A stretch of DNA of 64,000 nt from Balanoglossus misakiensis (Eukaryota; Animalia; Hemichordata): NCBI GenBank assembly GCA_040954595.2, contig CM082596.2:3775025-3839024 (forward strand). The letters are read 5' to 3'. The position numbers and the translations under genes are program-made. Below, piece after piece: positions 2,051 through 53,600 of the stretch. Under the pieces are notes generated by a model, which saw only the letters and a list, made by a program, of their open reading frames with translations, had not been told where the DNA came from and made no database searches. Numbering within the stretch: position 1 is the stretch's first letter; every line of letters begins with the position of its first letter.

Positions 2051-2063
2051 AAGATAATCTTAC

Positions 2064-5000
2064 CTGGGTATCTTGGCTAAGTAGGCAATACATGTAGCAA
2101 AGTCTTGAATGGAAAGGTCGATGGGGTCAGCTAGGTTGGGAATGGATATAACGGGTCCTCCATTGCGGTCTTTACCACCTGAAAGCAGAAAAAAAGTAAA
2201 TCAATACATACATACTGACATATTGTCATAACAGTCCCACATGACAATGTAAATGCTAATGACAGACTCAATAAAGCCTGCTGAAGTTTGTTCCGGACAT
2301 TCAGGCTTTGGGTTTTAATAACATCAAACTGCTGCAACAGCATACAGGCTAAATTCTATCACATCTCATTAGCGGTTTCACAGTCTCTCATGGGTTACAT
2401 TCCATCCACAGGGACCAACTCTTTTCATAACACAGATTGTGATGCAAGTTAATCTGGAAAAATTCCAGATTTATTTGCAAACACATCATGGTTGTTGATA
2501 ACAGTCAAAACTGGATATAACAAACAATACCCTGCAGAGTTGACACAGGTGCTGATAAAAAAAAGCCCCTGACAGTTTCAAAAATGTTAACGATAAGAAA
2601 CAGTTAAGTTATTCTGGTAGCTTACGTCAATCTCCACACAAAACCACACATTACATCTTTAAAAGTGTAATTCTATCATAGCATGGTGAATGTTAAATTT
2701 TATTCATCACTTCCTTTACCGCTTAAACATCCAGAAAAGTTGATCGACTATTGAACCAGGTTGACCCAATCTTTATCCGAATCACACTATTTTGTCATTT
2801 AAAAGTCAGCATTCCACATTGCCAATAGCTGCTGATGGAATAAAACTCAAATCTTCTCATAACACCCACACTTCAGACACACATAGACAGCTGGTCTCTT
2901 GGGACATGGCATGAACATGTAAGTCTGGAGTCCGCAACCCTACAAAGTTTTAGATATCCATAATCTTGATGCGTTGACGGACAGAGATCAGTTTACCGAG
3001 GTGTCGTGCAGGGACGGTATTTCAACATTCTTTTGGTGAGTTGTATGCGGTAACAAGAAATGTGTGTCTCACACAGCCAAATATTGGTATAAACTTGCGA
3101 AAAGATGGTCCCTGTTTTTTTGAGGGCATGTTAATTTATCTGTTATAAAGTATAAGTTTCCTAAATTGTTGCATCAATGGTGCATCTCAGCTCAGAACTA
3201 ACAAAGTACTACACAACATGCCTTTGCAAACTATTGTTCAACACTAATCTTTTGACTAGGCCAATATAAGCCTACGCACATTAATAGGTCACCAGGTCAA
3301 CCCAAGTGACTGCTATTAAAAGCCATATGTCAATAGCTTCTGCCTGTCATGACCAGTCCTGTGTTTTTCTTGCATATGCATTCAACCATGATGACATGGT
3401 TAAATAACTGTGCAACTGAGAACTACCAACCACTTCAACCCATGAAATTTGTTGTCAAAAATATAAGCAGTTCCACTATACCAGTAGATTTTGGTTTTCT
3501 GATATTAGTATTACAGAAATTAACTTCATATCAGAAACAAACATATATCTACTGAAAGGTATTACATGCATGTCACTATGTGTATATTTCTCTTTTCATG
3601 TAACATGTAACAATATCAATTTTGCTCTTGTCAGTGGTTTTATACACGACAACAAACACCAAATCGCCTGTCAAAATTTCTACCTACATATCTAAGCACT
3701 TGACATCATTTCCCCCCACACTTCCCATCGACACACACATGTACAAGTTCGCAAACAGGCTTCAAGTGGCTGCTATGTACACAGCGTATACCACAACACC
3801 ACTGAGTTCATGTTTATTATTTAACATGGTGTTTATACATGCGGTGACTGAAAATTTACTTGTGAACTCAGTGAGTGGACATTACCAGCACCTTGTTATA
3901 TTAACAACCCTGCGTGGGACTCCTGTCCATATTGTGCCCTGGTCAAACAACAGGGTTTGGAAATATCATGCTGGTACCTGGAGCTTTTTCTCCAGGGGAA
4001 AAATTGAACAGACCAAAAACAACAACTTTAAACAAAATTGTACATAAAAACACAACTGTATGACCTTTCACCCCAGTTATGAGAACAAAATCCCTACTGT
4101 GATGGCTATCAGCAGCCTGTGATTACAATTTAATGGGGCTCTGAACTGCAAGGATATTAACTCAGCAGGAACTCCTGTCAAAGTTTGTACAGAAAGCTTC
4201 CATAATTACTTGCTTCATTTAACCCTACAAACCATGCCCTTCTTTCGTCTATAAAATTCGGAGTAAACATTCCATCAGTTCTGGTCAAACGGCAAAATAT
4301 AAATTTCACAATTAAAATGGGTTTACACATAAACTCCTCTGAGTCCGGTCGTTATGCCTGGTCTACATGTATCCATTGAAGAAACTGATTTTAATAGTTA
4401 ATATTAGATTGCAATACTTTTAGTTTGACTTCACCAACGATTGGACACATAAAGTTTTAAAGTAATTTTGAAACTTTGAAACTGAATATGTTTTTATGTC
4501 CCTTCACATGTTAAATGATATCAGAGGTATCTATAACAGCTTGGCTTATTTTGAAACCAAAGACTAAACTAAACCAAGTCGAACCAGAGAAAATAACCAA
4601 AGCCTGATTATCAAAATCTCCAAATGAAAAAGTTTGCCTCCGACGACTGGTGTATTTGGAGTGAGTCGCCTTGAAATGGAATAAAACTCTCGCCTTGTTT
4701 GGTCAAGTTGATACACAAGGATCAACAATATAATATCCAAGGTTGGTGTCACTGCAATAACCTCAGCTGTCACAGAAAACTAAAACACAGACAGTGGGTT
4801 TTGCTGTTATGTTTGTAGTGAAGTTCTGAAACTCAATATTATGTCTGAATTCAACAATTTGGATTTAGGGAAGTCTCCGCACGATATAAACAAACGTAAA
4901 ACTTCCCCAGACCTCCGAAAATATCTGGCTAAATGTGAGAAACATTAGATAAACACCAAACAAGTGCGAGCTGAACGCTCACTTGCGTGGTTTTTATCTG

Positions 5001-5256
5001 AATTCATAAAAACTGATCAGGGATTCGGAAACACCCAAGTGACACACCAAAATTGATCCCTTGGGAAGCAATCTGACCGAAAATGTGTGAACAGTGTGAA
5101 AATGTCACAGGAAATGTGTACACACAGTTTAAACATGTCACAGAGCCACCGCAAGAGATTTCAGCACTCTCACACGTAAACTCAGAATTTATAGGACTTA
5201 CCTGATAGATAGGCAACCCTTGAACGAAGTACGTCCACTATCTGGGAAGCTTCCAT
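2064..5256 (-). CDS. SESTD1: SEC14 and spectrin domain-containing protein 1, first two coding exons; the gene continues beyond the window start
   Basis: Exon 5256-5202 encodes MEASQIVDVLRSRVAYLS (phase-1 GTAAGT donor). Exon 2178-2064 encodes GGKDRNGGPVISIPNLADPIDLSIQDFATCIAYLAKIP. This matches the SESTD1/Trio/Kalirin SEC14 N-terminus (MEAS...LAFLSGGKDR..G.I..IP); the MEAS start favours SESTD1. Confidence 0.85.
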
Positions 5257-6390: not shown

Positions 6391-7564
6391 ATCTATCGGA
6401 AGAATAGTGATATTAGGAGAACATCAAAATCAACTATTTTATGAATAAAGAATACTTGTATTCATACAACTGAAATATACAGGCCAATACAGCAGTGAAG
6501 CCACTCTTTACAAACTATGCTACAAAAGGCAATTAAAGAACAGTAATTCACAACTGCTCCCTGTCTTTGTGAATGCTTTCTTGTGTTTTCTTTATTTCAC
6601 TTTTGTTGTTTTTGAACATGACAACTGGGTTACAATCTGAATGACAGTAAAAGTATGCAAACGACACACAGTAAATAGTTCAAGAAGTAGCCAGGTTTAA
6701 GTGACACCGGTCAATGGCCGAGTTTATTGAGAACGACAGTAATAGTGTGTGAAAGAAACAACGTGAGTAAACAATTCCAGTAGTCGGGTCCAAGTGTCAT
6801 CAGTCAATAGTGTGGAATCATATAACATGAACAGCGTCCTTCTATATGCATAACAATGCTATTCACAGGCACTGAAGCATGCTAGACGCTGCAGCTATAA
6901 CTTTTTTTTTGTAGAATAACCTTGGACCATATATAATGTCACTTTCGATGTTATACTACTCGGAGAGTTACACACTAAAAGTTTTACAAAAGGAAGCAAA
7001 GATGCATATTAATAGTACAAATGTACTTTGATCTAAGCACTTAATAAAATATTAATTTTATTATTTTCCTTATCAAATTCCAGCAAAGCTATACACACTT
7101 TTTGCACTGATTAAAACCACTATTATAGTCTGCGCTTTTATTGACAACTTGGTATCAGAAAGACCATGTGCTCTATAGTTTGACCCGATGAACTTTTTGA
7201 TATCAGACACATTAACAATCAAAACAAAGTTTTGTATTGTGGTTTCCGCATTCTAGAGGGGCTTGCAAATAAGCACGACTGTACAAGTTTTAGTGTGCTA
7301 CCCGGAATGCATATTCTTTCGAGAGTATGCGAGAGCGACAAAAAAATCATCGGTTCCCGTCTTGGAGCGCGGTCATGTGTCCACACCCCTTTTAGCCGGC
7401 AACACATGACGAAATTTAGTGCATTGTATGCGCACTCACAGCGTAACTCATCCCGAAAAGAATTTCAATGAAACAAAAAGAAAGTAATCCTAGTATTTTA
7501 ATGTCTTTCACGATTTTGCATTCTTTCAGTTTGTGCACGACGGACGCGACTTTTTCAAATTGCA

Positions 7565-7948
7565 CAACACGTTTTCACCCAACCAACGCAGGCGTTACGT
7601 TGCGAGGTGTAAGCTGTAAGCTCTTGTTTATTTCAGCGCGCCTTCTCCAAGGCGGACTGCGCGTACGCGTCCCCATAGGTTCATTTCACGGCTGCGTTAG
7701 TATTAAGATATTTTGACACTGAATATAACGGTGCTTATTTCGTTCATTTTCACCTTGTAAATTTCCCAACACGTTTTCACCCGACGCGGTTGTCGCAATG
7801 TGCAAGCAGTTTGCACTTGTTTATTTCAGCGTATCAGCCGCAAGGTGAGCTGCGCGTACGTTCCCTCCTATTGGATATCACTGTTGTGTTGGTATTCGGA
7901 ATTTCTGTCACTTGAATATAACGGTGCACAAGTAATTTTCACCTTGTA
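7565..7948. repeat. Diverged tandem duplication of a ~190-bp unit (7565-7759 and 7767-7948)
   Basis: Both copies share, in the same order, CAACACGTTTTCACCC, CTTGTTTATTTCAGCG, CTGCGCGTACG, TGAATATAACGGTGC and ATTTTCACCTTGTA. Confidence 0.85.
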
Positions 7949-10332: not shown

Positions 10333-10539
10333 AGATAAAATATAATGGAAGGTGTGGCGGTATACTATGCATGTGTTGACTAAAAGCAGGGGCGAGTAGG
10401 TTCCGCAATGTGCTGTAATTTTGACCAATAAACCACAAAGTAATTTATATGAGCAATCCACTGCTATCCGTCTGTGGGGAAGCAGTCTTTTACAACTTTA
10501 TCCTTATTTCATTTTTGCCGTTCGTTCGTCAGGATAACC

Positions 10540-13092
10540 ATGCCGAGACAGCCTTTTTGGGACGAGAAGAAAAAGAAGTATGAAGGAAGTGGCTGCGCGC
10601 TGACTTCAGTACCTGAAGAACTGTGGACAAAATACAAAGATGCCAAAATCGTAGATTTGTCCGGGAACAGAATCAGTAACCTGCCGTCACAGATAAGGGA
10701 GCTGACGGTCCTTGAAGAACTAAATTTGGCGGACAACAACTTCCAGATGTTTCCAGACGCCGTGTACCTGGTGAAGTCTTTGAAAATGTTAAATTTGGAG
10801 TCGAATTCATTGACATCAGTGCCTTACAATGTCATACAACTCAAGGAACTCCGGGAAGTCAATCTGATGAAAACCAACACGCTGTCGTTTCCCAGAATGA
10901 TCTGCCGAGTCCAAAGTTTGACGAAATTACACTTTGGATACAAGGAGTTACCTCCACGTGTAACCAGCCTACCGGATGACGTTTTGGTCACACTGCGTCT
11001 AGAGGAACTGCGCCTGCACTGCTGTAACCTCAGCCTGTTCCCAAAGGTGATATTCAAGATCAAAACCTTGAAGGTGCTCAGTCTGGTTTGGTGCAAGATT
11101 GCAGATGATCTATACGACCTTGGCGAACTCTCAAACCTCGTACAATTGACCCTATCATGCAATGAACTCGTATCATTACCCGACAGTATTGGAAAACTCC
11201 TTCGACTTGAAGTTTTACATGCCAACAAGAACCAACTGAAAAGTATACCGACAGCTTTGAAAAGTATGTCCAAATTAAAAACTATCGATTTGGATGAGAA
11301 CCCTCTCTGCCCTGGAAAGAAAGTGGCCTGTGAGAACAACGCATCAAAAGCCAAAAGTATTATCAGTGAAGTTCTGGTTGCACAGGCAAAACAACAAGTT
11401 GGTCTACCCCTTCAAACAAAGCAAACCACCTCAACTCCCCAGCAGGCAAAAGTTGAGATCAAACGCACGGTAACACCGACACAGCAGAGTTACCTGAAAT
11501 CTCCAACTTCGGCAAAGCAAAGTGACCAACCGTCAAAAGTCGCGACGAAGCCAACATCGACTTCAACTTACAGAAGTTCCCTGGTGTCCCCATTTCTAAC
11601 CAAACAGACAGAAACGTCACCAAAACGACCAGACTCTCAGCTATACAGGAGTTACTTAACACCTCCACCGACAGGTAGCACGTGTCGTGACGCACAGGCA
11701 GTAGGCACCAGCCTACCACAGAAAAGGGAAGTCTCCACACCGACGTACCAGAGTTATTTGAAGTCGACGCCTCAAACGAAACAGGGGCTACAGTTCCCTA
11801 GTGGTAAATCGCCAGTACAGGCTACTTCGAGCGCAAACGCAAAAATGGTAGTACAAGCTTCCACTCCGAGTGCGAAAACACCAATACAAGCCATTTCTTC
11901 ACAAAATAGGGGAAGTCCGAAAAAGCAAGAAGTGACACAAAATCTTCAAAGCCAGCAAGAACAACGACGACAAGAAGAACTTCGACAAAAGCAACGCCTT
12001 GAACTGTTGCAACAGCAGCGCCAGCAGCAACTGCAGCGGCAGCAACTGGCGAAGAAAGCCGAAATTCCCCCACAGCCGAAGACTGCAGAAATCTCAACAA
12101 GGTCGACTTCCCGAGCATCATCAAGCATTGGAGTGTATCCCATGGGAAACCGGCCTCGTGGACAAGCAATCATCATTAACAACTTCAAGTTTGGAGACTC
12201 TCAACAAAGAAGAGACGGTACAGAATTCGATAGAGGTAAATTCTCCGGTTCGCAATTGGAAAGTTTATCATGTTTACTGTTTGTCCTTAGTAGCGGTGCA
12301 TCCAAGAGTTTTACATACAAAAAGGACCATTATTATTGAATCTCGAATGGAAAAGAAGTTCAAATGATTAAATTGAAGTGCGCCCTCTACCATTAAAATG
12401 TTGTGTATGCACAACATTAACACTGCGTTATTCACTTCCAGTATATATGTAATTTGAGGGAATAAAAATTATGTTTTCTCTGTACAGGTAATTTACACAT
12501 TCTACTGAAAGATCTACATTTTGGAGTTCACGTCTACAACGACCTGAGTGCAAACGAAATGGAGTGCGTTGTGAAGACCTTCAGCATTGAAGACCACAGC
12601 TTCTTCAACTGTTTTGTACTATGCGTTCTTTCCCATGGTTCACAAGGCAAAGTCTATGGTACAGACAGCAAGAGCGTGGAAATTCGAGATCTTACAAAAC
12701 ATTTCTCAGCCGACAACTGCAGCACGTTGGCCGGGAAACCCAAGTTGTTCTTCATTCAGGCGTGCCAGGGGCCGACCTCCATGGGAGCAGTGTTAGCCAC
12801 CGATGCTGTATTTGGGAATAACCTTATTCCAAACGAAGCAGACTTTGTCATTGGCTACTCAACTGTGCCTGGCTATGTCTCATACAGAAACACGGGAAAG
12901 GGGAGTTACTACATCAAGGCTTTGGTGGACCAGTTGCGTCAACTCGGAAATGAACACGATTTGGTGTCAATACTGGCTAAAGTTAGAGATGAAGTGAGCA
13001 AATCAGTCCATTCATTAGAGGGCGGTCGTTACTACACACAAGTACCAACAGTGGTTAGCACTCTCGGTAAACAAGTGTACTTGAAAATGTAA
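10540..13092 (+). CDS. LRR-caspase fusion protein (766 aa): ~10 LRRs, S/T/P/Q-rich linker, Q/R/E coiled coil, caspase p20/p10
   Basis: join(10540..12235,12488..13092). A phase-1 GT-AG intron restores ...RRDGTEFDR-G-NLHILLKDLHFGVHVYNDLS... Catalytic motifs LSHG and KPKLFFIQACQG are present, as are p10 motifs ADF, YSTVPGYVSYR and GSYYI. LxxLxLxxN repeats occupy roughly the first 260 aa. AATAAA lies at about 13196. Confidence 0.93.
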
Positions 13093-13507
13093 GTTACAGA
13101 ACAAACTGATGAATGAAATTTCAACTGGAACGTCCATATGAGCAATTTCTTTGTATGTTCGTTGCTGTATACTTTGCGCTTGATTTACGATTATTAATAA
13201 ACAAAGGTTCAACACATGAGTCGTTCTTTCTAATTTCACACATGGGACATTTACCACATCATTGCCAGACCTAAATTAAATTCCTCTGACACCAAAAACA
13301 CAGCATTCCTTATACACAATGCCAAACAAACATTTCTTTCTTACAGTAAAATATGAGAAATTATTCTCATATTTGACTGTTTTATGTATATTAAATGCAC
13401 AAACACATAACTATACATTTGTGTAGTCCTGTCTGACACAATTTATTAACTGTGCAAAATCAGTCAAATGTACAAGTACACAATATCTTCTCTGCCATTA
13501 CTTCAGT

Positions 13508-14580
<1,073 letters not shown>

Positions 14581-15473: not shown

Positions 15474-16085
15474 TTACGCTGCATACAAAGCTTGGAGCAA
15501 TTTATGGCACTCTTTCTGGTTCTTCTCAACTATGCGATGTGGTCTGGAGAAGAAAGCAGTCAGAATGTTGACTGAAGCCTTGGGGAAATATGTCTGCTTA
15601 ATAACATGGGCAAGTGTGATTAATGGGCCGTGCAAGTCTCTGACGGGTTGGATCTTATCCTCGCTTTTCAGCAGACCCAGATACACCAGCAAACTATTCA
15701 CGATTTCCTCAGACCGCACACTTTCACTGGACATTCCCTTGGACAGGATAGCATCTGAACACTCATAGACAGCCTTCTCCACATCCTTTTTGTCAGTGTC
15801 CATGACCGAGGCCACTTTGACGAAGGCATTTACAACCCTATCAGCAGACTGGATCCTTCCAAGATGGTCAGTCAGCAGATCTGCCCGGTTCTTGCCAACG
15901 TTGAGGAGATTGGCTGCTGTTGGGGATTTGTAAAAGGCCTCAGCTGACACTGTTCCCTCGTCTGACTTCTTGGGGCGGACTGAAGCCATCTGGGAATACA
16001 GTGGACGAGCCTGGTCAGGTTCCTTCACTTCTACCACAGTAACACTGTCATCCTCATCCTCGTCTTCATCAACATCTTCATATTC

Positions 16086-16127
<42 letters not shown>

Positions 16128-17569
16128 TTCTTCCCCTTCCCCTTCATCATCACTCAACGATCCAAGACTTTCAATTCTTCCGCTCTTTTCAAGTGTCTCC
16201 TTAACGAGCTCGATGCCTTCTTCACCAAAGCAGTTTCCATTCAGTTCCAACTTTTCCAACTGATTCTTATCTTTGATGCTCTCAGCAAGCCTGACTGCAG
16301 CATCTTTGTTGATCTCGCCGTACGACAGATTCAACTCTCTCAGTTTGGGTACTCCTTTCTCCATTGCGCCGGCTATCGCCACAGCTCCTCCCGAACGCAC
16401 CAGGCAGTCACCAAAATTGACAACTTCCAAATCGGACAGCTTTTCAAACGCTTTGGCCATTGCTTCGGCTCCCTTTTCTGTGAATGTGTTATCATTCAAG
16501 TTCACTACCCTCAACTTGGTATTTGCCGCGAATGCGTCTGCCAGTGCCGACACACCGGGGTGGTTGATTCCATTCTGTGGCATCTCCACTCGCTCCAAAG
16601 TCGCGATGACCTTGAAGGCTGCTGCAAGTGCTGTGGCACCTTCATTTTCCAACCTGTTTCTTCCGGTGATGAAAACTTTCAAAGACAGGGGCTTTCCAGC
16701 TGCTGAACTTTTCTTGTGACACTCCAAGAGAGCTTCTGACAGAATTTTCCCACCGCCTACTCCAAGACCATTGTTGTTGAACCTCAGCTCCTGCAAAGAG
16801 TACCCGGATTCACTTTTAAGGAGCTCAGTGCATGCCTTGACACCATCCGGACCAAATGCATTGTCACTCAGATCAAGCTCAACTAGGTTAGCTTTCGCCG
16901 TGATGATGGCAGCGCCTAATGTTTCAAGTGATGGAGGAATCTCGGACCTCAGTCTACCGGTGAACATATCACTCCATTTCGCTCTCTGGAACTTCGATCT
17001 GGTTTCCAGTGCTTTTGCGATTGCTTTTGCTGCTTCGACTCCAACAGTATTGCCTGATAATCTCAAGCACTGCATATCTTCTGCATCTGCAATAGCATTC
17101 ACAATCTCGTCTGCATCCTCTGCTTTGTCAAGTTTCAATCCCCTGCCAGCAAAAGATACTTCCTTTACTTCTCCACCTGTTGAGAAAGACAACACATCAC
17201 TCTAGAGATGTATGTTTGAAATATTTATCCAAAGATGTAGAAATCTTAGGTGTCACCATGGCAGCAATCTTTGTTGTCATCAGGGGCAGTAATGTTTGAT
17301 CAAAAACACATTAAATCTCACTGACATGACAGGTGTGTATAAACTGGAGCCGTATACGTTTGAAACATGCAAAATCCTACAGACAGCAGCATTCATTAAC
17401 AGTCATCATGCTCAGGACTGAAAGTGAGAAATCTTGTCCACAGGTCACGTGTTGCATTGATCAGGAGAGTTATGCCCGGAGATTGAGATATGGCATGGAT
17501 CGAATAAAAAATCTTACCTATTGTGGTCTTGGCCAATAAATCAGCGACATCAGGCTCGCTTTTTGCCAT
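15474..17569 (-). CDS. RANGAP1: Ran GTPase-activating protein 1 (584 aa)
   Basis: Exon 17569-17518 (MAKSEPDVADLLAKTTI, phase 1) joins exon 17176-15474. Features: LRR domain (WSDMFTGRLRSEIP, GRNRLEN), poly-acidic tract, and a C-terminal domain with the SUMO site GLLKSEDK. Confidence 0.97.
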
Positions 17570-22600: not shown

Positions 22601-25600
22601 CCTTTTGTAGATTTCCAAAATAACCGTAGTAAAACAATTAATTTTGACCAAACCAACGTGGTGAAAGGGTAAATCGAAGAAGGGTAAAAATGACTGGTGT
22701 TGAGACTTGAATTATGTCACAAGAATGTCTTAAGTGTTTACATGTAGTCCTTCAACCTCAGCAGTAGTTTTTCACTCATTATATTTTATGTTTTACAGCG
22801 CTGCATGCTGCTGCCCTCTCTGGCCATGCCAAGTCATGTGAAATTCTGATGGAGGTAAGCGTTCTGTGGAACATAATAGATCTACCCTTATAAAGGGCAG
22901 CGCTGTAACACATCTGCCCTCAAGGCAGCTCAAGCAGGATCTTTGAAATGTGAATATTAAATATAGATCTGCAGACAACATCAGTCCATGATCGAGCTGC
23001 TATAATAACACAGATTTTATCCTCTGTTTGCAGCACGATGCACAAGTCAATGCAGAAGACATGATGAAGCATACGCCATTGTTCAGAGCCTGTGAAATGG
23101 GGCATCTGGAAGTTGTGAAAACTCTTATGAAAGGTACAAGATGACACTGACTAGATTGATTCATGAATGCACATGCTTCCGTTGCTTTGCTTCGATACAG
23201 ATTACCAATAGATGACTCTCCAGTATCATTACTAACTTATAAATAACTTCTATCTCTCATGATAGGTATATTATATTAGTACAATATATTCTGTAAAGTC
23301 TGTTCCCTCTCTTCATTACAGGAGGTGCCAAAGTGAACATAGTTGACCAAGATGGTCGATCGCCTCTTCATTGGTGAGTAAAATCAATGAACATACATCT
23401 AAGTGCATTCTGTCTGAAGTAAACCTCTCTATTCTGAATAAGCGCATCAGTCATTACAGGTACTCAGTACACAAAATAAATCACACAACCAGTCAAATCG
23501 CGCGTACAGCCAATCTTAGTGTAAAGGGCAAAAACAGCTCATGATATTCTTCAATCCATGTGTGGTCATCGCTTGAGTTGGAGTAAGAATATAATGGATT
23601 TTTCACATAAAAATAGAGACTTTGCCCCTTTAATCGCTGCTTACAAGCATAATGAAAGTGCCACGTTCTTGTGTTGATTTTCAGGGCTGCACTTGGGGGC
23701 CACGCTGTGATCTGTGAAACTCTGATGAAGAACGGTATCAGTGTGGATGTGCGCGATCATGTGGGCAGAACGCCTCTGCAATGTGCAGCATACGGCGGCT
23801 ACATCAACTGCATGTCCCTCCTGATGGAGAATGGAGCTGATCCAAACATACAGGACCATGAGGTGAACACAGTTTATGATGTTGATGCAAAAAAAATATA
23901 TATCAGATCTTAATGTGTTTCCAAATAAATGAGTGAACAAAGGCAAAAAACCCTCACATTTCATGAAATGTGAGTAATCCTCTCAAGTGTACTGTTGATA
24001 TGTAAGTTTAGACCCAGTTGCCATGGAAAGTAGGGATTCAACCAGTTAGAGGTTTGTAATCAGATGGCCATGCTGAAAGGTCGACAGATTAAGACTTACC
24101 CTATTTGGGCAGATACATGTATATTTAAATCAGAGAGGGTGGTCTTCACTGTGCAAACAGGAAAAGGTAGTGGTTTTGTCAAGTACAGAAGTCAAATAGA
24201 CCCTCGAATAGTCAGTGACAGCAATAAAAATAAATATGCTTGGGTTAGCGAATTTTATAAGAATTCACATATTTTGTTAAGCGGGTAATGCCCACTTGAA
24301 TTCCAGGTTTTAAACATTTTCATTGAATTGTTAATGAACAGATTTCACATATAGATTAAAAGAGAAATTTCAGGCTGTTGTCCTGTGCAAAAGTTGAGTG
24401 CAGTTTTTTTTTAATCTAACCAAACTTGTCTGAAATAATTCTTGCAGGGAATGACAGCACTGCACTGGGCCTGCAGCTCAGGTTGTTTGGATGCCATCAA
24501 GTTGTTGTTTGAATACAAGGCCTTTCCCAACCACATGGAATTCAATGAAGACAGATTTACACCGCTCGACTACGCCTTACTCAATAATCACGACGTCGCC
24601 CAGTATATGATAGAACAGGGTGCATTGTCCATCACAGGAATAAGAGATATTGCTGCTTCAAAAATACAGGTAAGATCTGTAGAACTGTGGATATTAATTA
24701 ATAAAAACAACTTTCCTCCTTATCTGATTGCAAGGATTTGTAAATTGTGAAACCGGTTCACTTAAAAATAATAAATGGTTTATTAATCAGCTCATTGCAA
24801 TCAGCTTTTTGCTGCCACACACATTTGCAAAAAGTCAATCCTTTTTGTGCATTTTCTAATGAAACTACCTATACCCATGACAACCATTCTTGGTGAGTGA
24901 AATACTTCAGTGTGATCCAGGGGGGGTATAAAGAATAACTACATATAACGGATAAACACAGGATGAGATTCCTGCAGAAGCAAGAAAATACGGACAGCAA
25001 CCCCACAGCACTGCAGACCAACCAAATTCTCATGATTTAAAGGTCACAGTGCATCACAAGAGGACAGACTAAAATAGAAACTCAACATAGGCTTTTATTT
25101 CGAGGAATTAAATCCTGCTCACCACACAGGAAGAAGTGGAATACATGATTGTATAAATATTTAATCCTCTGTTTACTTTTAAACTTAGAATGTGTTAATA
25201 ATTCAAAAATTGGAAATGTTTTGTGATGTGTAGGCCCACTACAGAGGATTCAAGGTTCGCAGGACATTCCTGGAGAGGAAGAAACTACTGATGAAACACG
25301 AGCAGCTGAGAAAAGATGCAGCAAAGTGAGTTTTGTGATTCCAAAAACTTTCAACCCTGTGTTCCTCTGTAAGGGTCCAATACTAGTATCACTATACCAA
25401 ACAAAGGATTTGGACCAAACCATTTCGATTTTCTTGATGATGACCTTGCAGGAAAAAAGAGGAATCAAAGAAAAGACAGCAAGAGTTCAGAAGACGGGAG
25501 GAGATTCGACGGCAGAGGGAAAGAGCGAGGCAAAGTTTGGAAAGTCAGAATTCATCAGAGTCGGAGCAAGAAGTGGCGGATTACAGTCTACCGAGAGACA

Positions 25601-35300: not shown

Positions 35301-38300
35301 CACGTTTCAGTCGTATCCAGGGGCGTGCAGTGTCGCACACGAAGAGTATGGCTGCATCCTTGTACCTATTTTCTATCACACTACATTTACCAGATCACAG
35401 ATTACACGACTTTGGTACATTAAAGACTTAAAACTTCTCCCGCCCCCTCCTCTTCTCTCCTCCCTCCCCCTCTCGCAAATGCACGTCTATACAGCAAGTT
35501 TTCATTGCAATCTTTGTTTTTTTAACAAAATATCTGAAGATGGAAAAATGCTACTCGACTTTTACCATTTGAACAGGAGCTAAAGAGGTCAAATAACACT
35601 TTTTTTTGTTTACAGGCGCCCTATAAAACTCTCTATATTTCCGAAAGAACCACCTGCCGAGAAATCGTGAAGCTAACGGTACTGAAATACAAATGCCAAA
35701 AAGACGTCAGTGATTTTCAGCTTTGTGAATATTCGCCTGATAGTCAATGTGAGTATACGTCTACGCGCAGAGGATACTGTGATCTATAAATGGTTTATAC
35801 ACGTAGACAATTCGAAAAATCATGAGCTACTTTCAATCACGTTCGTCAGTTAGAGTTAGGCCTACAAATGTGTCAACTGAGGTGCCAGTGCAATCAATCA
35901 ATCAATCAATCAACCAGCCAACCAACCAGACGCTTTCCCCTATTTATATCGCATCAAGGGATGGTTAATTACGTTGCCATGGTAGCTTCCATAGTTACCT
36001 CCTCCGTAAATGCATCCTTCCACTACACTACCGGCTGTTCACATGCAGTCCTTGAGTTGAAACCGAACAAGTCCCGCGGCAGATCCTTTAAGAACCAACT
36101 AAACTCTTTCTACTCTTTGCAGTCGTTTCACTACCGTTGCGAGACGAACATCGTCCTCTGAAAACGCCAACACAGCAAACCATGGGATCGAAGATCTACC
36201 GACTCCGCAGGCGAGACTCCATGTCCAACGGCCTCGACAATGAGGTACTATGAATTCACTTCTGAACTGCTTTTAAAAGATGCTTATAATTTGGGATTTT
36301 TGAAGAAGAATCTTTTTCAGAAAATAGTGGTTTTGATCCTTGTTTTGAAATCATGACGTACTCTTGATATCTGCAGGCAAATTTCGACAAACAACAAGAC
36401 AAGTTGCACTTGGCAATGGTCAAGATGCAACACCAGCAGTGGATCCGTCGATGCGAGTCTGACCTGACAAACGGCGGGAAGGAGAAACGGAAGAAGGAGT
36501 TGGCGGGGAAACGAAACGCCGCGTCCGCCCAAGAACGACCCGCGTTGACCGAAACAGCCGCCGAAGCGCGCCGACCGCTTCGTCAACGAGAGGAAAAGGC
36601 TGGTGATAATAAAAGGTGTGTTGATTAATTTCAACTGCAAGGTATAGGACCCGAGTTATGAAATCCCAGACGTGTCCAGTTATTTGCTAGTTTTGAAAAC
36701 GACTCTTTTCAAAGTTGATCTTTCAAATTTAAGCAAGAATATTCAATGGTGACGGTGCCTTGAGGGACGACTTGACTTGTCCACACTTTTTTACAGTTAT
36801 GACTTGAAAAATTAAGTGATGCCGATACATTCACTGTGAAAATGCAAAACGACGAAACTATTAAAGCCATGTTTTCTTGTGTTTATCCTATTGTCAGGGT
36901 TCCGTTACCAGGGAAACCACCGTTTGTCTTCGGTCCGAAATCGACAAACCGAAATCGTAACAGCGATATGTTGCCAGCGTCGAGAGGTGCCAGTGCGCGT
37001 GGAAAGATCGATCCCCATACCTCAGACGGATGCATGGCGTTCGAACACACAGACCAAATGAAGATGGTCTACGATGATATCAGACAGGACATGACGCTGA
37101 ACGACATCGTCAAAGCGAAACTTTTACAGCTCTACAACATTGACACCGAAGGTTTCGGTTGTGATAAGTTTCAGAGCATGCGTCGGTCCTCATCGGGGCA
37201 AAACCCTCAAACAGACCCTCAAATCACCATGAAGACCGCGATTCCAGAAAGCACGGACGAAACGACTGGGTCAACTGCCACAGAGAAACGCCCGTCTTGG
37301 ACACTGCCTCCTAATACACAAGCCCCGAAGGACAACACACCAAAACTGCCGGTCAAACTTCGCCGCCAGGCGGCAGTTCACTCTCGACCAACGACCACCA
37401 ACATGCCGAACTTTGCGCACCAGCCAGAACTAGGGATGGCACAAAGAGACTTCTTAGAAACTCTGCATGGCTACACAATCTTAAACGCTGTTGTCATCAA
37501 ACGTAACAATTTCAGACATTACAGATCGTGGGGAATCAACCTGACTGAGTCGTCGGTGATGGCGTCACGCCGTCTGACCAGGAGTGTGTCGTCCTGTTCG
37601 TCTGGGTCATCTGCTGGGTCAGAGTCAGACGTCGACAGCGCAGACTCATTCGGTTTCGCATGTGTTGCTGGATTGGGAAGAAATCTGAGTAGCCAACAGA
37701 GTGACCTACAAATTGGTGACCTCGTCATACAGGTAAGTTTAGTCAGTCAGTCTCTCTCTCCTCTGCCTATCTGTCTGTCTGTATGTCTGTATGTATAATG
37801 TATGGATGGATATGGTGAACTGGAATGCTCATCTCTGAACTAGCGCCCTCAGCCGATGTACATTCGTACGGTGCGTGGACTTGCCCAACCTCGGCGGACC
37901 AAAGGCAAACCTATCCAGCTTTGTCAGGACTTTACACCTTTGTTATAATCAGCCCTTTACTGCATTACGCCATGTTGACAGCCATTCTGTTTTTTTCTGT
38001 TACACCCATCAGGTGAACGACCGATCGGTAGCCAACCTCCGCCCCACAGAAGTCGAAAAGATCATCGATGCTCACCGGGACTCGGTTGATCTGAAATTGT
38101 TAGTGGCACGAAAAATATCTTCTGCACAAGATGTCGGGGTAAGGCCGCATTCATGTTTTCGTCGTAAAAGCAATATTTGAGTTTGATTTTGACAGTACTG
38201 TCCTCCAGTAAAACAAAACCCGAACAAGAACACATTGCCTTATGGCATTGAAATGACTGTACAATTTTGTAACCAGAGTCTCTGGTTTGCCACATGCGCA

Positions 38301-41219: not shown

Positions 41220-43192
41220 TTATTTCTTTGCCACGGCGATCAGATTTGTGGTGACCCATTTAAAGCTGCCGTTGACCATCTTTGTAGCTTTCTCGAACGC
41301 GTACTGAAAAGCTTCCTCGAAAAATTCTTCGCGCATCTCCTGGGGGAGGTGATGAATGTGCGGCACAAAATTGCGGTATCCTTCTGGAAATTAAAAACAT
41401 ATGCGCGTAATTTACATGAGTGTAGAATGGAATACACGGGTTTACTTGAAAGAACGGCGATTTGTTGAAAGATGGATGCCCAATAAAGTATTAGTAAATC
41501 AATGAAATGCGAGATCAATGTATAAGTTTTATATAAATTCGGTGCTTCCGCGTCGTTTACTTTGGAATCTGACGTCATAAGTGCTTGACAATAGTTTCCA
41601 AGCTCTGAACATATACCTTTTGATGTTTCGAAGTCGTCGACATCGAAAACCTCATCTAAATACTCGGTTTGACACGTGACATCTTTGAAGCCGATGTTGG
41701 TGAGAATGTTCACCAGATCATCCTCCCCGCCTTCCAAGAAGTAAACTGGAAACTTATAGTCCTGCAAATTAATAAAATTCACAGACGATGAGCTCAAGTT
41801 ATACGTGCGTTTTTACAGAATTCGCAAGAATAAATTAACCACTGTCCAGTTTGGGAATAATGGTACAAGCAGGTAAAATGGGTAACTATGGTAACCATAC
41901 CGCCAAGAGTGGCCGCCATCTTGAACATCTCACAAAATCTTCGATTATCAAGAGGAACACGGGATGTTTGTTTGGGTGTATGTTGATGTAACACTCTCCT
42001 CCAGGTTTAAGGCACTGGTAGATGGCAGGTAGAGTTACTGTACGCCAGTTCTTTATCCAGTGAAGAACGTGGTATGCCATCACTTTGTCGAAATAATTCT
42101 TCCATTCTGGTCTGAAAGTCTCCGGGTCATTGGCATCGCCCACGTAGTACTTGATCCTTCCATTTGGGGCGTTACTTCGGGCGAATTTGATCATAACTTC
42201 ACTGATGTCGAGCGCTGTGTTGAAAGAAAGATGTTCATACTTAGAGTTTAATAAAAGATTGCATAATGTCAGAATGAGTGTTGATTTCATCTCCTTAAGA
42301 AATATTACGTCTGCTATCTTCTGAAATTACCAGCCTACAAGTGTCTGTACGGTGTAATATTATCAGCAATTTTCCAATTGTGAACTATTTTCTCACAGTT
42401 TATTTCAACATCCAAACGATTACGCATTCCGTGGGGCCAAAGGCTTCCAAGTCGTGTCCAGATATAAGAACAAGTGTTCTATATAATCAAGGACGTCATA
42501 TATTGTGCGCTTGTCACTAATTTCAATCTTAGCAGGTGGTGTTATTTGGAATGATGCATTTTGTAAAGATGGCAGAAAGAGAAAAGGGGTTTCACCTCTG
42601 CTCTATACAGTGAATCAATGGCAACAGCACTGACACCCGATGTGCTATTTTTTAAAAACTTGTAATAGTACATCTGTGCCCAAGTAAAGCCTTTGTCACT
42701 TTCCGAATACGAGGTTGCACGAGACGAAGATCCCAAGGCCAGGGTTAAACCCCACTGCGTTGGTCACAAAGAGCTTTTTACAAAGTATGTCATGAAAATG
42801 ACAACGACGTGCGCAGGTAGGACTGGAGGGATTCTGACATTACAGCTCTAAATCCTATTCAGCCTTTCTGCGATATCGCCATTATCAAATGGACAAAGTA
42901 GGTAAAGAGGGCATAGGCAATACATGTTCTGTAACACAAGAAGGCCAAAAACCATCAGTATGAGAAAGTGTCAAAACGACAAACGAGATTTGTTTTCACA
43001 AAACCCACCTGTCGTAGAGCTTACGTTGCCGTATCTCGTCACCAACTGAGTCAGGGTTCCCGGCCCACATCCTATGTCCAACAGTTTATCACCGGACTTG
43101 AAAGAAAGTCGTTTCATGATACTTCGGGCCGACTTTTCCACGATCACGTTCGTGAACAGATCATACGAAGCCACGGACTCTTCGATATTCAT
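41220..43192 (-). CDS. Class I SAM-dependent methyltransferase, juvenile hormone acid O-methyltransferase (JHAMT)/Tam-like
   Basis: Exons 43192-43009, 42214-41901, 41761-41617 and 41383-41220. Motif I is LLDIGCGPG; also LDISEVMIKFAR, FDKVMAYHVLHWI and YQCLKPGGE. The protein ends LIAVAKK*. Confidence 0.85.
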
Positions 43193-44462: not shown

Positions 44463-45445
44463 TTATTGTTCACGGCACTTCGATTTATTATTCAGGGAAA
44501 CGAATTCCGAATCCTGTAGAAGTTCTTGTATCTGCGAATTGAAGCTCCAGATGCGGTCTCTGTGTTGAAAAAAAAAACGAATTCAGATTCAGATTCACTA
44601 CGCCTATGCTCAAGATATTCAAAAGCACATTTTGAATCACTTTTATCTTCATACAACTTGCATCGGTGTTGTGTATTTGCTTTGGGATTTGTTTGGTAAT
44701 TTCTCGTTCAACTTACTCGCGGCTGTTGCTATGGGTACTGTGCACTGCTCTCCAGTAATACCCGTCAGGCATTTGGTAATCCAGGTCGCCATCGTACTCA
44801 TTTACATACGGGGTTTGCAGGCACGTTGTCATGGCGAGGCCGCCATTGAGCTCACAGCAGAGGTACTGCCATTGGCGGTCGTCATGCGAGTTGCTGAATA
44901 CACTGTGTACGCCGACGATTACAGCGTTGGAGAAGCATTGAAAGTTCAGGATAGCATCGTAGTTGTTGGCATAACCACTCCACACACACTGTCTCAGTTT
45001 AAAAAGAGGAAAATAAAGCGTTGAGCATCTTCTTACCTGTCACCAAGTAACCGGTCGCTTAGCGCCGCAGCGCCCGCACACGACTGCGTCTTGCAGACTA
45101 TTGTTTTTCTGCAAAAATGTCAACGCAATCACCCCTTTTTCATTCTGATCTCCCACAAAAGCTCTAATGTTCTCACATGACAAAATATAAAGGAATCGCC
45201 ACCAACGAACACGATCGTACCTGTGTATGGTTTGAGGGTGCTGGTATACACTCGAATCCCCAGAGACGATCTTCTTTGCTGTCCCAGTGTACACTTGCAA
45301 CACGATTGATGACTTCATTCGGTTGACAGGTGAAATAGAAAGATTCCTGCCAATCATTCACCCATGTCAGATCTTTCACTGACGTCAAACCTTCCAAAGA
45401 CCCGACCAAAGCCCATGATAGGAAGACAACCACTGTAAACTTCAT
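44463..45445 (-). CDS. Secreted dermatopontin / hemagglutinin-amebocyte aggregation factor-like protein
   Basis: Exons 45445-45221, 44988-44717 and 44559-44463. Signal peptide MKFTVVVFLSWALVG, then three repeats of WVNDW/YANNYD/YVNEYD...S.H....DR.W.F/Y. A non-coding exon donor lies at about 45690. Confidence 0.9.
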
Positions 45446-47675
45446 GACTTGAATGTTCTGTGAAGTTGAAAGATAGAATTGGTAATTGTAACTACCTCAA
45501 TGCGAAATGAAAGACTACAAAGCCAGCTGCATCGTTTTGCTTTGACAACAGAAAGTTACTGTTTCTGGGATTCTTTTGTTTACCAACCAATCTTCCCAAC
45601 TTAATATGACAAATGAACAAAGCAGACACATTTCAACACAGAGCTAACTGAACATTGCATTTGAAGATGAAGAAAATTTATCACACTTACCAGTGTTTTA
45701 GTATTGATGTCTACTGTGGCTCAGCTCAACCTAGAGTGAACATACAGAGATGTGAGAAAAAAAATATTAAGATACAGATGTCAGAAAGATAGCAAGGAGT
45801 CTTTATCTGATGGAGAAACTGATGAAGTTCGGTTAATAAGCTTAGATGAGATGTGAAGAAAAGATAGTGACCATGTTTGTGAGTCAAAGATAAAAATTAA
45901 ACCAGCAAATAAGAATAAATGCAAAACGAAACATTTATTTTCTGTTTGGTGATTACATATAGAATGGTAAACACAAGAAAATCTGCCCTATAACATATAT
46001 GATACACAACAGACGAACGCTGTCATGTCATGTGCATATTTTTTCTGTCAAGAAACCCAAGGATAAAACATGTCCGTCTTTGGAATGATACAATGAACTG
46101 TGAAATATTTACAGAAGACTTTGAAAATGTATGATAATGGTATCAGTGTTCAGCTGTGCTTTTAATCAGACATACATGTTACCTTGTCTGGTGAAGCTCT
46201 CTGTATAGTGCAAGTTTCAACACTACTAAAAAGTTTTTTTTAATCAATACTTAGAAAAACATGTATCAATCAGTACAGCACACAGTTGGAGTCAGTTCTA
46301 CTCAAGTTTTTTGGAACTTCATCTGTCATACTGGAATCTGTGAATGCACACAGTTTTTAGGTAGGGGACTATCCCAAGGCAGGGGATGGTTATCGCATTT
46401 GGAGTAGTTCCTCATCAAAGTTTGCTTCTGTACAAGACTGTCTATGATTTAGGTGTTCGAATACGAGCTCATAAAGAAATGTGGTTGTGTGGCACAAGTT
46501 GACAATCTCTTTTTCTCAAGGTACTGCAAGACGATTTAACAATCACGATTGTAAACTTGCCTAGTATATCAAGTCTCCCTTAACCCTTTCACAACCAGTT
46601 CCCTTTTAAGAGGTCCAACAACTTTACGCCTGATTGGTTATCAACATCGCCCTCTGTGATCCTTATCCAAAACAGTGCCCTCTATGGGCAGAAACCTGTC
46701 TGTCTTTAAAATGAAAAATAGCCGACTATTTACAAATGTCTTTCTTAAAACACTCCTCCCAAAAAATTTGCAGCAAAGTTAACAAAAATAGGAACACAAC
46801 ACAAGCTTCGACTTGGTGACAAATCACTTCTTCCAACACTGAAACAGAAATAATCTCGACTCAAGTGCCTTCCTAGATCTCTAAATTTGCAAAATATTCA
46901 TGCAAGTGTTACTATAGTAACACCTCATACACCAGATAAACAATTAAGTAAAACTGTATATAATCCACAAAATAAACTTCCAACATTTACACTTGATATA
47001 TTTTAAAAAAATTTCATGTAAATCTGTCTGATTTATTGTCAGTTTTTAGCAAGTATCAAAAAAACTGAACATAAACTCTTATACTACATAATTTGAAACA
47101 GAACAATTAGATCCACACTTTATGAAATGACATTATGACAATTGAGAAGATACAAAATAATTTAAGTACATGAAAAAGTACAGCTTAGAGCTCTATCAAG
47201 TTGACTGGCATAAACAAACACTTTGTGGCACTGCATTTTTTAGATTGCACAGTTGGATGTCTTTGCTTATGGCATTTAGAGGGGTACAGTGATTCATTAA
47301 ATCATTGAGAGGTCTAAGCACTGTCTGAGAATTTTCTGCCCTTTCTGAGTGGCCAACGTTAATTTTCGATTCTACAAATGTTCAGTTTGTACACTCCAAT
47401 TTCAAAGTAATCTGTTCCGACAGAATTCCGATTAACAAAGAAAACAAAACACACTAACAATGCTGACAACATTGGACGGCTGTTCCACACTGTCAAATAA
47501 AATCCGTAACAATACTATTTAGGTATTTGGTTACCAGGGGTAAGTACTTCTATGGAGGGTAAACTCAAACTCTGGGATGGGAAGCTGTAAAAGAATATAT
47601 CTGACGCGAGTTTTCATTGGTGCTGCAAATATTGCACAGCGGTCGTTTCTCTCATTCAGGCAGTTTCCATGGTGA

Positions 47676-50600: not shown

Positions 50601-53600
50601 TTAATGACGATGGAATGCAATTTCCTCTCTGGAAAAATGACACCAAGGGTTGTGACGGATTGGACATGTCGCCTGAAACAGGAAAGCGAGAATATTCATA
50701 TGTTACCGCCACTATTTTCATTAAGCTACTAGTATGACAAAATCAATGGTACATGGAAAAGCAGAGGACAATAGTTGCTCGGTTACCCACCTATCATAGC
50801 ATATGTAAATGTATCTTGATTGACAGCAATGGGGAATGGTGAGAAGACAGACAGCCTGACATTCTGCAGGGCAAGTTTACTCTTCAACGTGACCTGTAGA
50901 CAAACAAATAAACAACACATGGTTAACACCAATTTAAATGACTAATTTATCATAGCAAAACCACGTTATTGATTACCTTACTCGCTGGCAATCTCAATGT
51001 AATCCTATGGGAAGAGACACATGCGTACAAGTACGCACAGGGAAACAGGTAAATCCACTTACTTTCACAGTAATTGATGGGATAGAATCCTCCTCATCTA
51101 CCTCCACATTATTTGCTTGCTGAAATGAAAACCAGGCAGAAATTATACTAAACACGGTTTATTTTATTCCAAGAAAGCATTACCTGTAGGTTAGTCGCAT
51201 TATTACCTTCCAAGATTTTAACTGTCGAGGTACATACTACCTTAAAGTTAACCCATGATGTGATACAATATATGATGTGATTCCAAATCACCATTTAGTA
51301 TGTTGATTTGAGTGATGTGTGTATGGTGCAGTTGGAATGGCTATGTATTAATAATATGCCAACAAGCCAAAATCATGTGGTCAAAGAATTCTGTTCTGTA
51401 ATGGCTATGCAATCACAGCCTCTCCACACACTGACAAATATCTGTGTTTCAAGATCAGGATGCATGTTCTGCGATACCAGGTTCGTTGCTTAAACTGCCC
51501 TTTGCAAACACCAAATAGTCTATCATACACAAAGGAGCAGCAACACCTCAACACTGCAGTAAAGATTGCAGTTGCAGCACAACACAAATGGCCAACCACA
51601 TAAGGTAACTGCTGCATCACACTGAAGCGTGTATTTTGGGCTTGCAAGCATGACATCGACAACATCACGCAATTTGGCGAGTGACAGTGATCACAAAGGC
51701 ATAGTAAGGACGACGTAAAAAACATCACAAGGCATTACCCCACTGCTGCCATAAGGAGATAGGGATGTGGGCCTTCCAAGATTGGATAACAGGTCCACAC
51801 TGAATTCTAAGGGAACGTCCTGTTGGTATGAACATAGGTGACAGGGTGACAGAAATACGAACATGCACTGTCATGCAAACAACACAAAACACACATGTGG
51901 GAGAGCTTTCATGCAAGGGTAGTACACAGACAGGGCAGTGTGTCATGCAAGGGGGGGGGGGGGGCTCTCATTTTTGTTGTTGAGTTGAGTTGACCCAGAT
52001 GTGGGCAACACGTCATGCATCTCTTCATGCAGATTACACACACTCAAATGACAGGACAAAAGTGCCAAACATGTACATACATACATACACTCAGACAAGA
52101 CAGTCTTATATCCTGACTGCATTTCAGAAAGAAACCACCAGTAATCTACCAAAAAATACACGTGTGGTTGGAACAGACCAGCAGTGATAAACAATTGACA
52201 GACCTATATATCGCATTTTGCACAACACCTTGAATCCTCCAACTGACCACACTGAATGCAATTTTTGCTTTTGTTTGTTAAAATACTGCACACACAAAAA
52301 ACCAAGCAGATTTGTGCAGTGTCTAAGCTCAATTGAAACACGGGTGTTGAAGATGGACACACCATCATAGAACTGCACACAAACCCAGCAAAGCTTAACT
52401 TCCAATTAATCCAAGTTAATTATTATTCACACGTGCACTGTGTCACAACCCAGTAAAGTTAGTAGCTGCAGTTGATAAATCATGCATCAGATGTAAAAAA
52501 AACATTGTTATTCCAACTCAAATTAGATCACTAGGGATCTTTACATGCTTGAAAAAATCCTCTTTCAATATCTTGGAATGTAAACATCAAAAGTCACCCA
52601 GACTTTCCTGTTTTAGTTGTTGTTAGTGCATTATAATAATGATTGGTCTGCAATGTCATTTATGTAGAACATTTGGATTGTAAGTATGAAAGCCTTAGCC
52701 ATGGATAGCAAATGGGTGACTTTTTATGTTTCTGAAATCTGCAATGAAATGGGGGAAAAAAGTGCAACACAGCACGCAAAAAAGATGGGCATCTATGTTA
52801 ACCTTTGACCTTACCCATGAATTATCAGGTGCAGAACAGTACTTGGAAACCTTCATAAAAAATAAAACAGAAGCTGTCATGCACAGAAGCGACTAGAAGC
52901 AGCAGCAGCACATGCATTGTGGGTATTCCTTTGCTCCTACGTGGGAATGTGGTAAAGCATCCACTGCATGGCATTTTGGGTGCAGTAGTAACAACCTGCG
53001 TTTGGGGTGAATCCTATTGCAAATGAAATTAGCAATTATGCAAGCTCAAGATGAAAAAGTCAAAAGTCTACAGTAAAAAAACAGGGAAAGATTGAGATTA
53101 CTTAAGTTGGGCACACAGTGGAATTAAATTTGGATTTTTTGCCCTATCAAAATGGACTGAAATGAAATGAATGTGATAATAACACAATGAACTCCAATCC
53201 CTTGAAACCAGCACCTTGATGATTTTATAAACCCCAGCAATGATGTCTCACTGGTGAATGTTCCTGACACCAAACGCTCTCACTTACCGAGGTATTATCG
53301 AGGTTTGGAGGTACTGATACCACTATCTCCAAATCATCAGCCTCTTTTCTCTTTGGTGCAATATCTAATAATGAGAAGAAAAAATGTAATAGAATTCATA
53401 GAGTTTAGGTTTTCCCAACTGTGTATATAACTGTTCATCTGACAGACACACACTATTCAGACAACAGTCAGAAACTACAAATCTTTATAGTTGACAACAC
53501 AGAGCATACACTTCTCATGTTCTCAAATTTCGATAAGCATGCACTGCATGTCATATCATGAACATTCTTGTTGGAAACTCACCGACTCCTTTAGCCGACG

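What the first reader, a model, noticed from the sequence alone, without database searches (positions are those of the whole stretch)
10540..13092. LRR-caspase fusion: a candidate single-chain sensor-protease lacking any death-fold prodomain
Seen in sequence: one spliced ORF joins about 10 cytosolic-type LRRs (no signal peptide or TM segment visible) to an intact caspase with His (LSHG) and Cys (QACQG). Established: metazoan initiator caspases use CARD or DED prodomains, QACQG is typical of caspase-8/10, and LRR sensors such as NLRs and PIDD1 normally reach caspases through separate adaptors. Inference: here the sensor and protease are fused, like a one-protein inflammasome/PIDDosome in which ligand binding by the LRRs drives caspase dimerisation. 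I do not know this as a characterised architecture.
Basis: partly seen in the sequence, partly recalled or inferred. Interest (0 to 1): 0.9.

Follow-up and report, generated by a model that had tools for sequence, protein, structure and literature searches.

The report
Acorn-worm LRR-caspase fusion gene
This gene, likely from an acorn worm, joins a leucine-rich-repeat binding domain directly to a cell-death protease without the usual adaptor domain; relatives occur in other acorn worms and a brittle star, the layout was noted once in amphioxus, and how the protein is switched on is predicted, not tested.

Summary
The gene is real. Two coding exons (10540-12235, 12488-13092) give 766 aa: 10 LRRs, a 250-aa disordered linker and an intact caspase. 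The caspase begins in the LRR exon, and Ptychodera flava models share the layout (LRR 71-72%, caspase 76-77%). No death-fold exon was found in the window; no RNA run was listed. LRR+caspase proteins also occur in Saccoglossus, Glandiceps and a brittle star (that one catalytically dead): 14 of 502 fetched proteins, a similarity-selected set. The layout and the 'shortcut' idea are in print for amphioxus models (Zhang 2008), though absent from that paper's RT-PCR table; I found no paper on the ambulacrarian family. The dimer-interface strand is effector-like (TVVST; 2 of 149 DED-caspases have such a strand), suggesting a pre-formed dimer. The LRR face is conserved, not hypervariable. Best reading (0.4): the LRRs bind a conserved cytosolic partner that clusters the dimer, and cleavage at LATD/A activates it. 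New variant of a known kind; interest 0.55.

The parts
10497..10532 (+). Splice-acceptor-like site (pyrimidine tract + CAG) 7 nt before the ATG; implies an upstream, probably non-coding, exon
   Evidence: Sequence; four P. flava models start at the same Met; no death-fold hit upstream
10540..12235 (+). Coding exon A (residues 1-565 plus one base): LRRs, linker and start of the caspase
10540..11379 (+). LRR domain, residues 1-280: N-cap, 10 repeats (35-256; repeats 4-8 irregular), C-cap
   Evidence: Pfam; register; models; 71-72% identical to P0002/P0003
11380..12129 (+). Disordered linker, residues 281-530, 52% S/T/P/Q, only 3 Asp (329, 365, 384)
   Evidence: pLDDT under 50 for 249-466; about 33% identical to P. 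flava
11926..12057 (+). Predicted long Q/E/R-rich helix in the linker (residues 463-506); possible self-association segment, untested
   Evidence: pLDDT 73-83 at its core; helix 442-475 in the P0003 model
12130..12235 (+). First 35 residues of the caspase domain, with S1 Arg558, in the LRR exon
12236..12487 (+). 252-nt GT-AG intron, phase 1 (inferred by homology)
   Evidence: best of 35 open in-frame pairs
12488..13092 (+). Coding exon B: rest of the caspase and stop
   Evidence: Peptidase_C14 E 8e-50; 76-78% to P. flava, 51% to Saccoglossus
12634..12636 (+). Catalytic His615
12757..12771 (+). QACQG with catalytic Cys658
12793..12804 (+). LATD (Asp671): predicted intersubunit cleavage site in an 18-residue linker
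   Evidence: xxTD in P0001, P0002, P0003 and P0007
13048..13062 (+). beta-6 dimer-interface pentad TVVST, effector-like
13196..13201 (+). AATAAA, candidate polyadenylation signal

Best explanation
The gene encodes one protein in which ten leucine-rich repeats replace the death-fold prodomain of a caspase with an intact active site, and it likely works as a pre-formed dimer that its LRRs would bring to a conserved partner in the cytosol, where a predicted cut at LATD/A would switch it on. Shown: layout, catalytic and S1 residues, conservation in acorn worms, no death-fold exon in the window. Inferred from known biochemistry: the TVVST strand favours a stable dimer, as in caspase-3/7, and such dimers are activated by linker cleavage. 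Inferred only: the LRRs cluster or localise the zymogen on a conserved ligand, the flexible 250-aa tether lets clustered dimers cut one another (or an upstream caspase does so), and the output is cell death or inflammatory cleavage. The ligand is unknown.
For: Layout and residues. Homologues with the same start and layout. Interface: TVVST in the window, P0001, P0002 and P0003; 137 of 149 DED-caspases have Pro at position 2 and only 2 of 149 have V/I at 2 with S at 4; caspase-7 reads CVVSM (alignment). Putting caspase-3's CIVSM into caspase-9 made it a constitutive dimer (PMC1088972, passages). The intersubunit linker is 18 residues with xxTD in the window and its four closest caspase relatives. 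LRRs are the most conserved part between two P. flava paralogues (261/280, against 179/234 for the caspase and 82/197 for the linker), and the concave face is not more variable than the rest (36/50 vs 84/122 identical, p 0.72), which fits one conserved partner.
Against: Dimer state is read from five residues, and T replaces the effector C and M. The engineered dimeric caspase-9 still differed from the apoptosome-activated enzyme. The nearest Saccoglossus LRR-caspase and three other hemichordate ones keep an initiator-type APxxT strand, so this mechanism cannot be family-wide. The caspase is otherwise initiator-like (QACQG; 100/99 branch against arthropod-type effectors; no named deuterostome caspase-3/7 was in the tree). 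No ligand, expression or activity data exist. The 21 of 21 effector count is circular (rows were picked by that motif) and is not used.
Confidence: 0.4

Rival explanations
1. Induced-proximity sensor (first reader; Zhang 2008): the zymogen is a monomer, and ligand binding by the LRRs dimerises and activates it like caspase-8.
For: The caspase sits on the initiator side with QACQG; apical caspases are activated by forced dimerisation (PMC11121540, passages); 5 of 12 full-length ambulacrarian LRR-caspase rows (window included) keep Pro at strand position 2, so this may hold for them.
Against: This copy has the effector-like TVVST strand; the LRR face is not diversifying; there is no oligomerising NTPase.
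Confidence: 0.27
2. Clamp or tripwire: the LRRs hold the caspase off, and cleavage or modification of the fast-evolving disordered linker (for example by a pathogen protease) releases it.
For: The linker is long, disordered and about 33% conserved, between two conserved domains; a D-A dipeptide (window D384) aligns in three P. flava models.
Against: D384 is absent from P0003; six other family members have gaps of only 18-58 residues between the domain hits; LRR and caspase conservation are uncoupled between paralogues.
Confidence: 0.15
3. Targeted downstream protease: the LRRs only select a substrate or a site, activation comes from a canonical upstream caspase, and the role may be developmental rather than immune.
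For: Effector-like strand and an xxTD site; the best sequence matches of the LRR among solved chains are intracellular proteins (LRRD1, SHOC2) and Leptospira LRR proteins; a canonical DED caspase-8 exists in Glandiceps (P0396).
Against: A multi-copy cluster with truncated models on one P. flava sequence, and a dead paralogue in a brittle star, look like immune-gene turnover; this is inference.
Confidence: 0.14
4. Annotation artefact: LRR and caspase are not one protein, or a DED/CARD exon lies upstream.
For: An acceptor lies 7 nt before the ATG; several P. flava models are LRR-only or caspase-only (P0121, P0122, P0001); all named homologues are predicted models.
Against: The caspase begins in the LRR exon; no DED, CARD or death-domain hit in six frames of the window (best E 3.3; control 55 of 60 DED pieces found); a divergent gene starts at about 5256, bounding the 5' space; four P. 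flava models start at the same Met; two Logan contigs of 2162 and 2267 nt carry related 568/569-aa fusions whole.
Confidence: 0.04

Closest known systems
Amphioxus 'LRRs-caspase' gene models (Zhang et al. 2008, PMC2575513)
   Same: LRRs joined to a QACxG caspase; the same shortcut from recognition to apoptosis was proposed.
   Different: 0 of 16 rows of their RT-PCR table are LRRs-caspase; their figures S6/S7 could not be read. The one amphioxus protein I found (P0253) has Roc-COR between LRRs and caspase and groups with caspase-9 (97/68); shared origin is neither shown nor rejected (p-AU 0.227).
Caspase-8/10 (DED initiators)
   Same: QACQG, xxTD linker site; most of the next hits after the acorn-worm proteins are DED caspases.
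   Different: No DED; effector-like beta-6 strand; not grouped with the Glandiceps or amphioxus DED caspase-8.
Effector caspases-3/7
   Same: beta-6 pentad TVVST vs CIVSM/CVVSM; short intersubunit linker; best PDB sequence hits are caspase-7.
   Different: 530-residue N-terminal region; QACQG; lies on the initiator side of the tree.
ANK-caspases of parasitic flatworms and other odd-prodomain caspases (PMC11463336; DSRM-caspases PMC7836458)
   Same: A non-death-fold module replaces the death fold; ANK-caspases are sister to DED caspases; function untested.
   Different: LRR rather than ankyrin; here it coexists with DED caspase-8, whereas parasitic flatworms lost theirs.
NLR inflammasomes and the PIDDosome
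   Same: LRRs upstream of caspase activation (recalled).
   Different: No NACHT, ZU5 or death domain, and no adaptor.
cFLIP-L (for the brittle-star relatives P0388, P0389, P0498)
   Same: Same prodomain type as active paralogues but no catalytic Cys (QML for QAC); cFLIP-L regulates caspase-8 as a heterodimer.
   Different: LRR instead of DED; no active LRR-caspase was found in echinoderms in my searches.

Membership tests
Metazoan caspases (C14A) | His-Cys dyad in SHG and QACxG | tested here: met
   H615, C658
Metazoan caspases (C14A) | Arg/Gln/Arg S1 pocket for Asp (motif positions recalled) | tested here: met
   R558, Q656, R699 (aligned to caspase-7 for exon B)
Metazoan caspases (C14A) | Caspase fold | tested here: met
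   Model of the P. flava homologue P0003 matches caspase-3/7/8 chains; window exon B matches 109 PDB sequences at E<=1e-20
Metazoan caspases (C14A) | Proteolytic activity after Asp | not testable with these tools
   needs an assay
Caspase-8/10 | Tandem DED prodomain | tested here: not met
Caspase-8/10 | Groups with caspase-8/10 in a tree | tested here: inconclusive
   Inside an unresolved 8/9/10 group (100/99 vs effectors), in no supported DED clade
Caspase-8/10 | Initiator-type beta-6 strand (Pro at position 2) | tested here: not met
   TVVST; 137 of 149 DED-caspases have the Pro
Effector caspases-3/7 | Dimer-favouring beta-6 strand | tested here: inconclusive
   TVVST shares VVS with caspase-7 CVVSM, but the dimer state was not measured
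Effector caspases-3/7 | Short prodomain | tested here: not met
   530 residues precede the caspase
Effector caspases-3/7 | Groups with effectors | tested here: inconclusive
   The best tree separates them; forcing the four TVVST rows next to the effectors costs 13.8 log units but is not rejected (p-AU 0.215)
NLR receptors | NACHT/NB-ARC domain | tested here: not met
PIDD1/PIDDosome | ZU5 and death domains | tested here: not met
   No such Pfam hit in the window exons or P0003
Roco proteins (amphioxus LRR-Roc-COR-caspase) | Roc-COR between LRR and effector | tested here: not met
   Present in P0253, absent here
Amphioxus LRRs-caspase (Zhang 2008) | LRRs plus QACxG caspase in one chain | tested here: met
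Amphioxus LRRs-caspase (Zhang 2008) | Common descent with those models | tested here: inconclusive
   Their sequences were not viewable; P0253 used as a stand-in
Diversifying LRR immune receptors | Hypervariable concave face | tested here: not met
   36/50 vs 84/122 identical to P0003, p 0.72; 9/50 vs 19/122 variable among four paralogues, p 0.82

The most novel reading that the evidence does not exclude
Acorn worms and echinoderms, the clade that lost caspase-2, share an ancient family of death-fold-free LRR-caspase receptors with its own cFLIP-like dead members, and the window's lineage has turned an initiator-type caspase into a constitutive dimer: a one-chain sensor-executioner that needs neither adaptor nor downstream caspase.
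Probability: 0.22. Interest if true: 0.8.

Novelty: new variant of a known kind. Interest (0 to 1): 0.55.

Why it matters
Caspases with non-death-fold prodomains keep turning up in invertebrate genomes, and none of the papers I read tests how one is switched on. This gene is a clean two-exon, conserved example with an intact active site, so it makes the 2008 'shortcut' hypothesis directly testable. The family offers natural controls: initiator-type and effector-type dimer strands, short and long linkers, and a dead paralogue. If the effector-like strand does give a constitutive dimer, it is a natural change of activation mode, which was previously engineered into caspase-9.

Tried and rejected
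No genome is held for the window, so copy number in this species and synteny were not tested; the window holds one copy. No RNA holder was listed; that is no evidence either way. The complex prediction of the window LRR with the P0003 caspase domain gave no answer (score 0.00). The protein atlas did not complete, nor did the VIA fold search. A Roco origin of the LRR, suggested by its C-cap, was dropped: the cap motif is in 82 of 296 fetched LRR proteins, only 13 with a P-loop after it, and the strict motif matched only 2 of the fused proteins. A single origin of all the LRRs is not supported: the window LRR ranks the other subfamilies 111-290 of 294 (the background was partly picked for likeness to this LRR). 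Hypervariable ligand face: not found. Upstream death-fold exon: not found (the five weak Pfam hits among 114 frames were all below cut-off). Earlier-finding look-ups by sequence, genome, relatives and taxon words were empty. The first, quick tree differed in the backbone from the careful one, so the backbone is not relied on.

Full report
OBSERVATION. The reading is correct. Exon A (10540-12235) and exon B (12488-13092) give a 766-aa frame with no stop. Pfam finds LRRs in A and Peptidase_C14 (E 8e-50) in B. There are ten repeats at residues 35-256. A linker at 281-530 is 52% S/T/P/Q and is modelled as disordered, apart from one helix at 463-506. The caspase has H615, C658 in QACQG, R558 and R699. 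The first 35 caspase residues lie in exon A, so the fusion does not rest on the junction alone. The junction is the best of 35 open in-frame GT/GC-AG pairs scored against five homologues. No RNA run was listed and no genome is held, so splicing is inferred.

AN UPSTREAM EXON? A pyrimidine tract and CAG end at 10532, 7 nt before the ATG. Profiles built from fetched DED, CARD and death-domain regions found nothing in 2823 six-frame peptides of the window (best E 3.3); 55 of 60 held-out 35-aa DED pieces were recovered, while CARD and death domain had no such control. Pfam scans of upstream frames gave no hit above cut-off. A divergent gene begins near 5256. Four P. flava models start at the same Met (P0002, P0003, P0121, P0380). 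The upstream exon is therefore probably untranslated.

RELATIVES. The closest proteins are from Ptychodera flava: P0002 and P0003 have the whole layout (LRR 71-72%, linker about 33%, caspase exon B 76-77%), so the window is likely another acorn worm of that kin. Three homologue searches and one search of 1.84 billion representatives (only the best 120-150 rows of each were seen) gave 502 proteins, of which 14 hold both domains. Eight are complete hemichordate proteins with a catalytic Cys (P. flava five, Glandiceps two, Saccoglossus one). Two are truncated P. flava models. Three lack the Cys (Amphiura P0388; unnamed P0389 and P0498, whole on 2.2-kb contigs). One is an amphioxus LRR-Roc-COR-caspase (P0253). 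All named ones are predicted models. Five further or overlapping P. flava models are split or truncated (P0001, P0121, P0122, P0123, P0380), which could be pseudogenes, decoys or assembly error.

TREES. In a 60-row caspase-domain tree (60 picked by hand from 222 caspases), the window groups with P0001-3 (100/99) and then Saccoglossus (95/81), inside an unresolved caspase-8/9/10 group split from effector-type caspases by 100/99. Those two acorn-worm lineages split about 373 million years ago (PMC4729200, passages). The Saccoglossus link is not firm: a tree that breaks it is not rejected (p-AU 0.215). Holding all 13 ambulacrarian rows together gives a likelihood 2.39 higher than the free tree (p-AU 0.568); adding the amphioxus protein costs 8.85 but is not rejected (p-AU 0.227). 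One origin is thus allowed, not shown. The LRRs argue against simplicity: the window LRR ranks the other subfamilies 111-290 of 294, though the brittle-star LRRs pick Glandiceps P0247 at rank 3. The tree has no named deuterostome caspase-3/7, caspase-1 or caspase-2.

MECHANISM. Two results bear on it. First, the LRR is the most conserved part between paralogues P0002 and P0003 (261/280, against 179/234 for the caspase), and its concave face is not hypervariable (p 0.72). That fits one conserved partner, whether host or microbial. Second, the beta-6 strand reads TVVST. Chao et al. (PMC1088972, passages) showed that these five residues set dimer propensity and that caspase-3's CIVSM makes caspase-9 a constitutive dimer. 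Among 149 DED-caspases, 137 have Pro at position 2 and 2 have the V/I..S pattern. Saccoglossus keeps APTYT, so the change looks lineage-specific. With an 18-residue intersubunit linker carrying LATD, I infer a pre-formed dimer that the LRRs cluster or localise and that is activated by the linker cut (0.40). Rivals are induced dimerisation (0.27), an LRR clamp or linker tripwire (0.15), a merely targeted downstream protease (0.14) and artefact (0.04). All steps beyond anatomy are inferred.

WHAT IS KNOWN. Zhang et al. 2008 (PMC2575513; passages, part of Results, Discussion and supplement S5 read) list amphioxus 'LRRs-caspase' and propose the shortcut; 0 of 16 RT-PCR rows cover it, and S6/S7 were unreadable, so I cannot tell which models they meant. 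Krasovec et al. 2024 (PMC11463336, passages) describe ANK, ROC, TIR, kinase and Z-binding prodomains with no mention of LRR, and found no PIDD in lophotrochozoans. Krasovec 2023 (PMC10959488, passages) reports loss of caspase-2 in Ambulacraria. Passages of PMC3196919, PMC7836458, PMC10155998, PMC11121540, PMC8195603, PMC8662601 and PMC13736523 showed no LRR-caspase; figure S8E of PMC10155998 was not visible and may bear on this. Ten library searches turned up no paper on hemichordate or echinoderm LRR-caspases; most hits were seen as listings only, subscription journals are missing, and the 2008 amphioxus and 2006 sea-urchin genome surveys (recalled) were not read. Two earlier scan notes on protist and bacterial LRR plus caspase-like fusions are unchecked leads only.

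VERDICT. A real, conserved gene. It is a caspase, but not a caspase-8, NLR or PIDD by membership. The architecture was noted before; the ambulacrarian family, its dead members and the effector-like interface appear undescribed. New variant of a known kind; interest 0.55.

Noticed in passing
P0388 (Amphiura filiformis XP_072025769.1), P0389, P0498: LRR + caspase-fold proteins with His but QML in place of QAC: catalytically dead, cFLIP-like. After each other, their best LRR match is Glandiceps P0247 (rank 3 of 294).
   Followed up: partly
P0253 (Branchiostoma floridae), P0239, P0266, P0332: An LRR-Roc-COR-caspase; its nearest LRR relatives are LRR-Roc-COR proteins ending in a GT4 glycosyltransferase or an OTU protease, suggesting Roco proteins with swappable effectors.
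   Followed up: partly
P0001, P0002, P0003, P0121, P0122, P0123, P0380 (one 44.0-Mb P. flava sequence): At least seven close models, two complete and five truncated or split; LRRs of the full-length four 89-93% alike pairwise where compared, while active sites vary (QACQG, QACQR, QACQE). Tandem array, gene conversion or assembly error not resolved.
   Followed up: partly
window 2063-5256, minus strand: Divergently transcribed neighbour whose first two exons look like a SEC14-domain SESTD1/Trio-type start (name recalled; Pfam gave no hit on the 46-aa piece).
   Followed up: partly
window 13440-14360, minus strand: Ribosomal protein S26 gene, convergent with the caspase gene, its 3' end about 350 nt from the stop.
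   Followed up: no
window 15474-17201, minus strand: RanGAP1 encoded in one 575-codon open frame; a separate LRR gene, unrelated to the finding.
   Followed up: no
window 24439-24747 +, 41889-42326 -, 44716-45496 -, 53554-55215 -: Exons for ankyrin repeats, a methyltransferase, dermatopontin-like domains and PTHB1.
   Followed up: no
window 36803-37798 +: 331-codon open frame, Ser/Pro-rich, no Pfam hit.
   Followed up: no
window 7557-7948: Two-copy tandem repeat of about 200 nt (70% alike) in a CpG-rich stretch upstream of the gene; possible promoter region.
   Followed up: no
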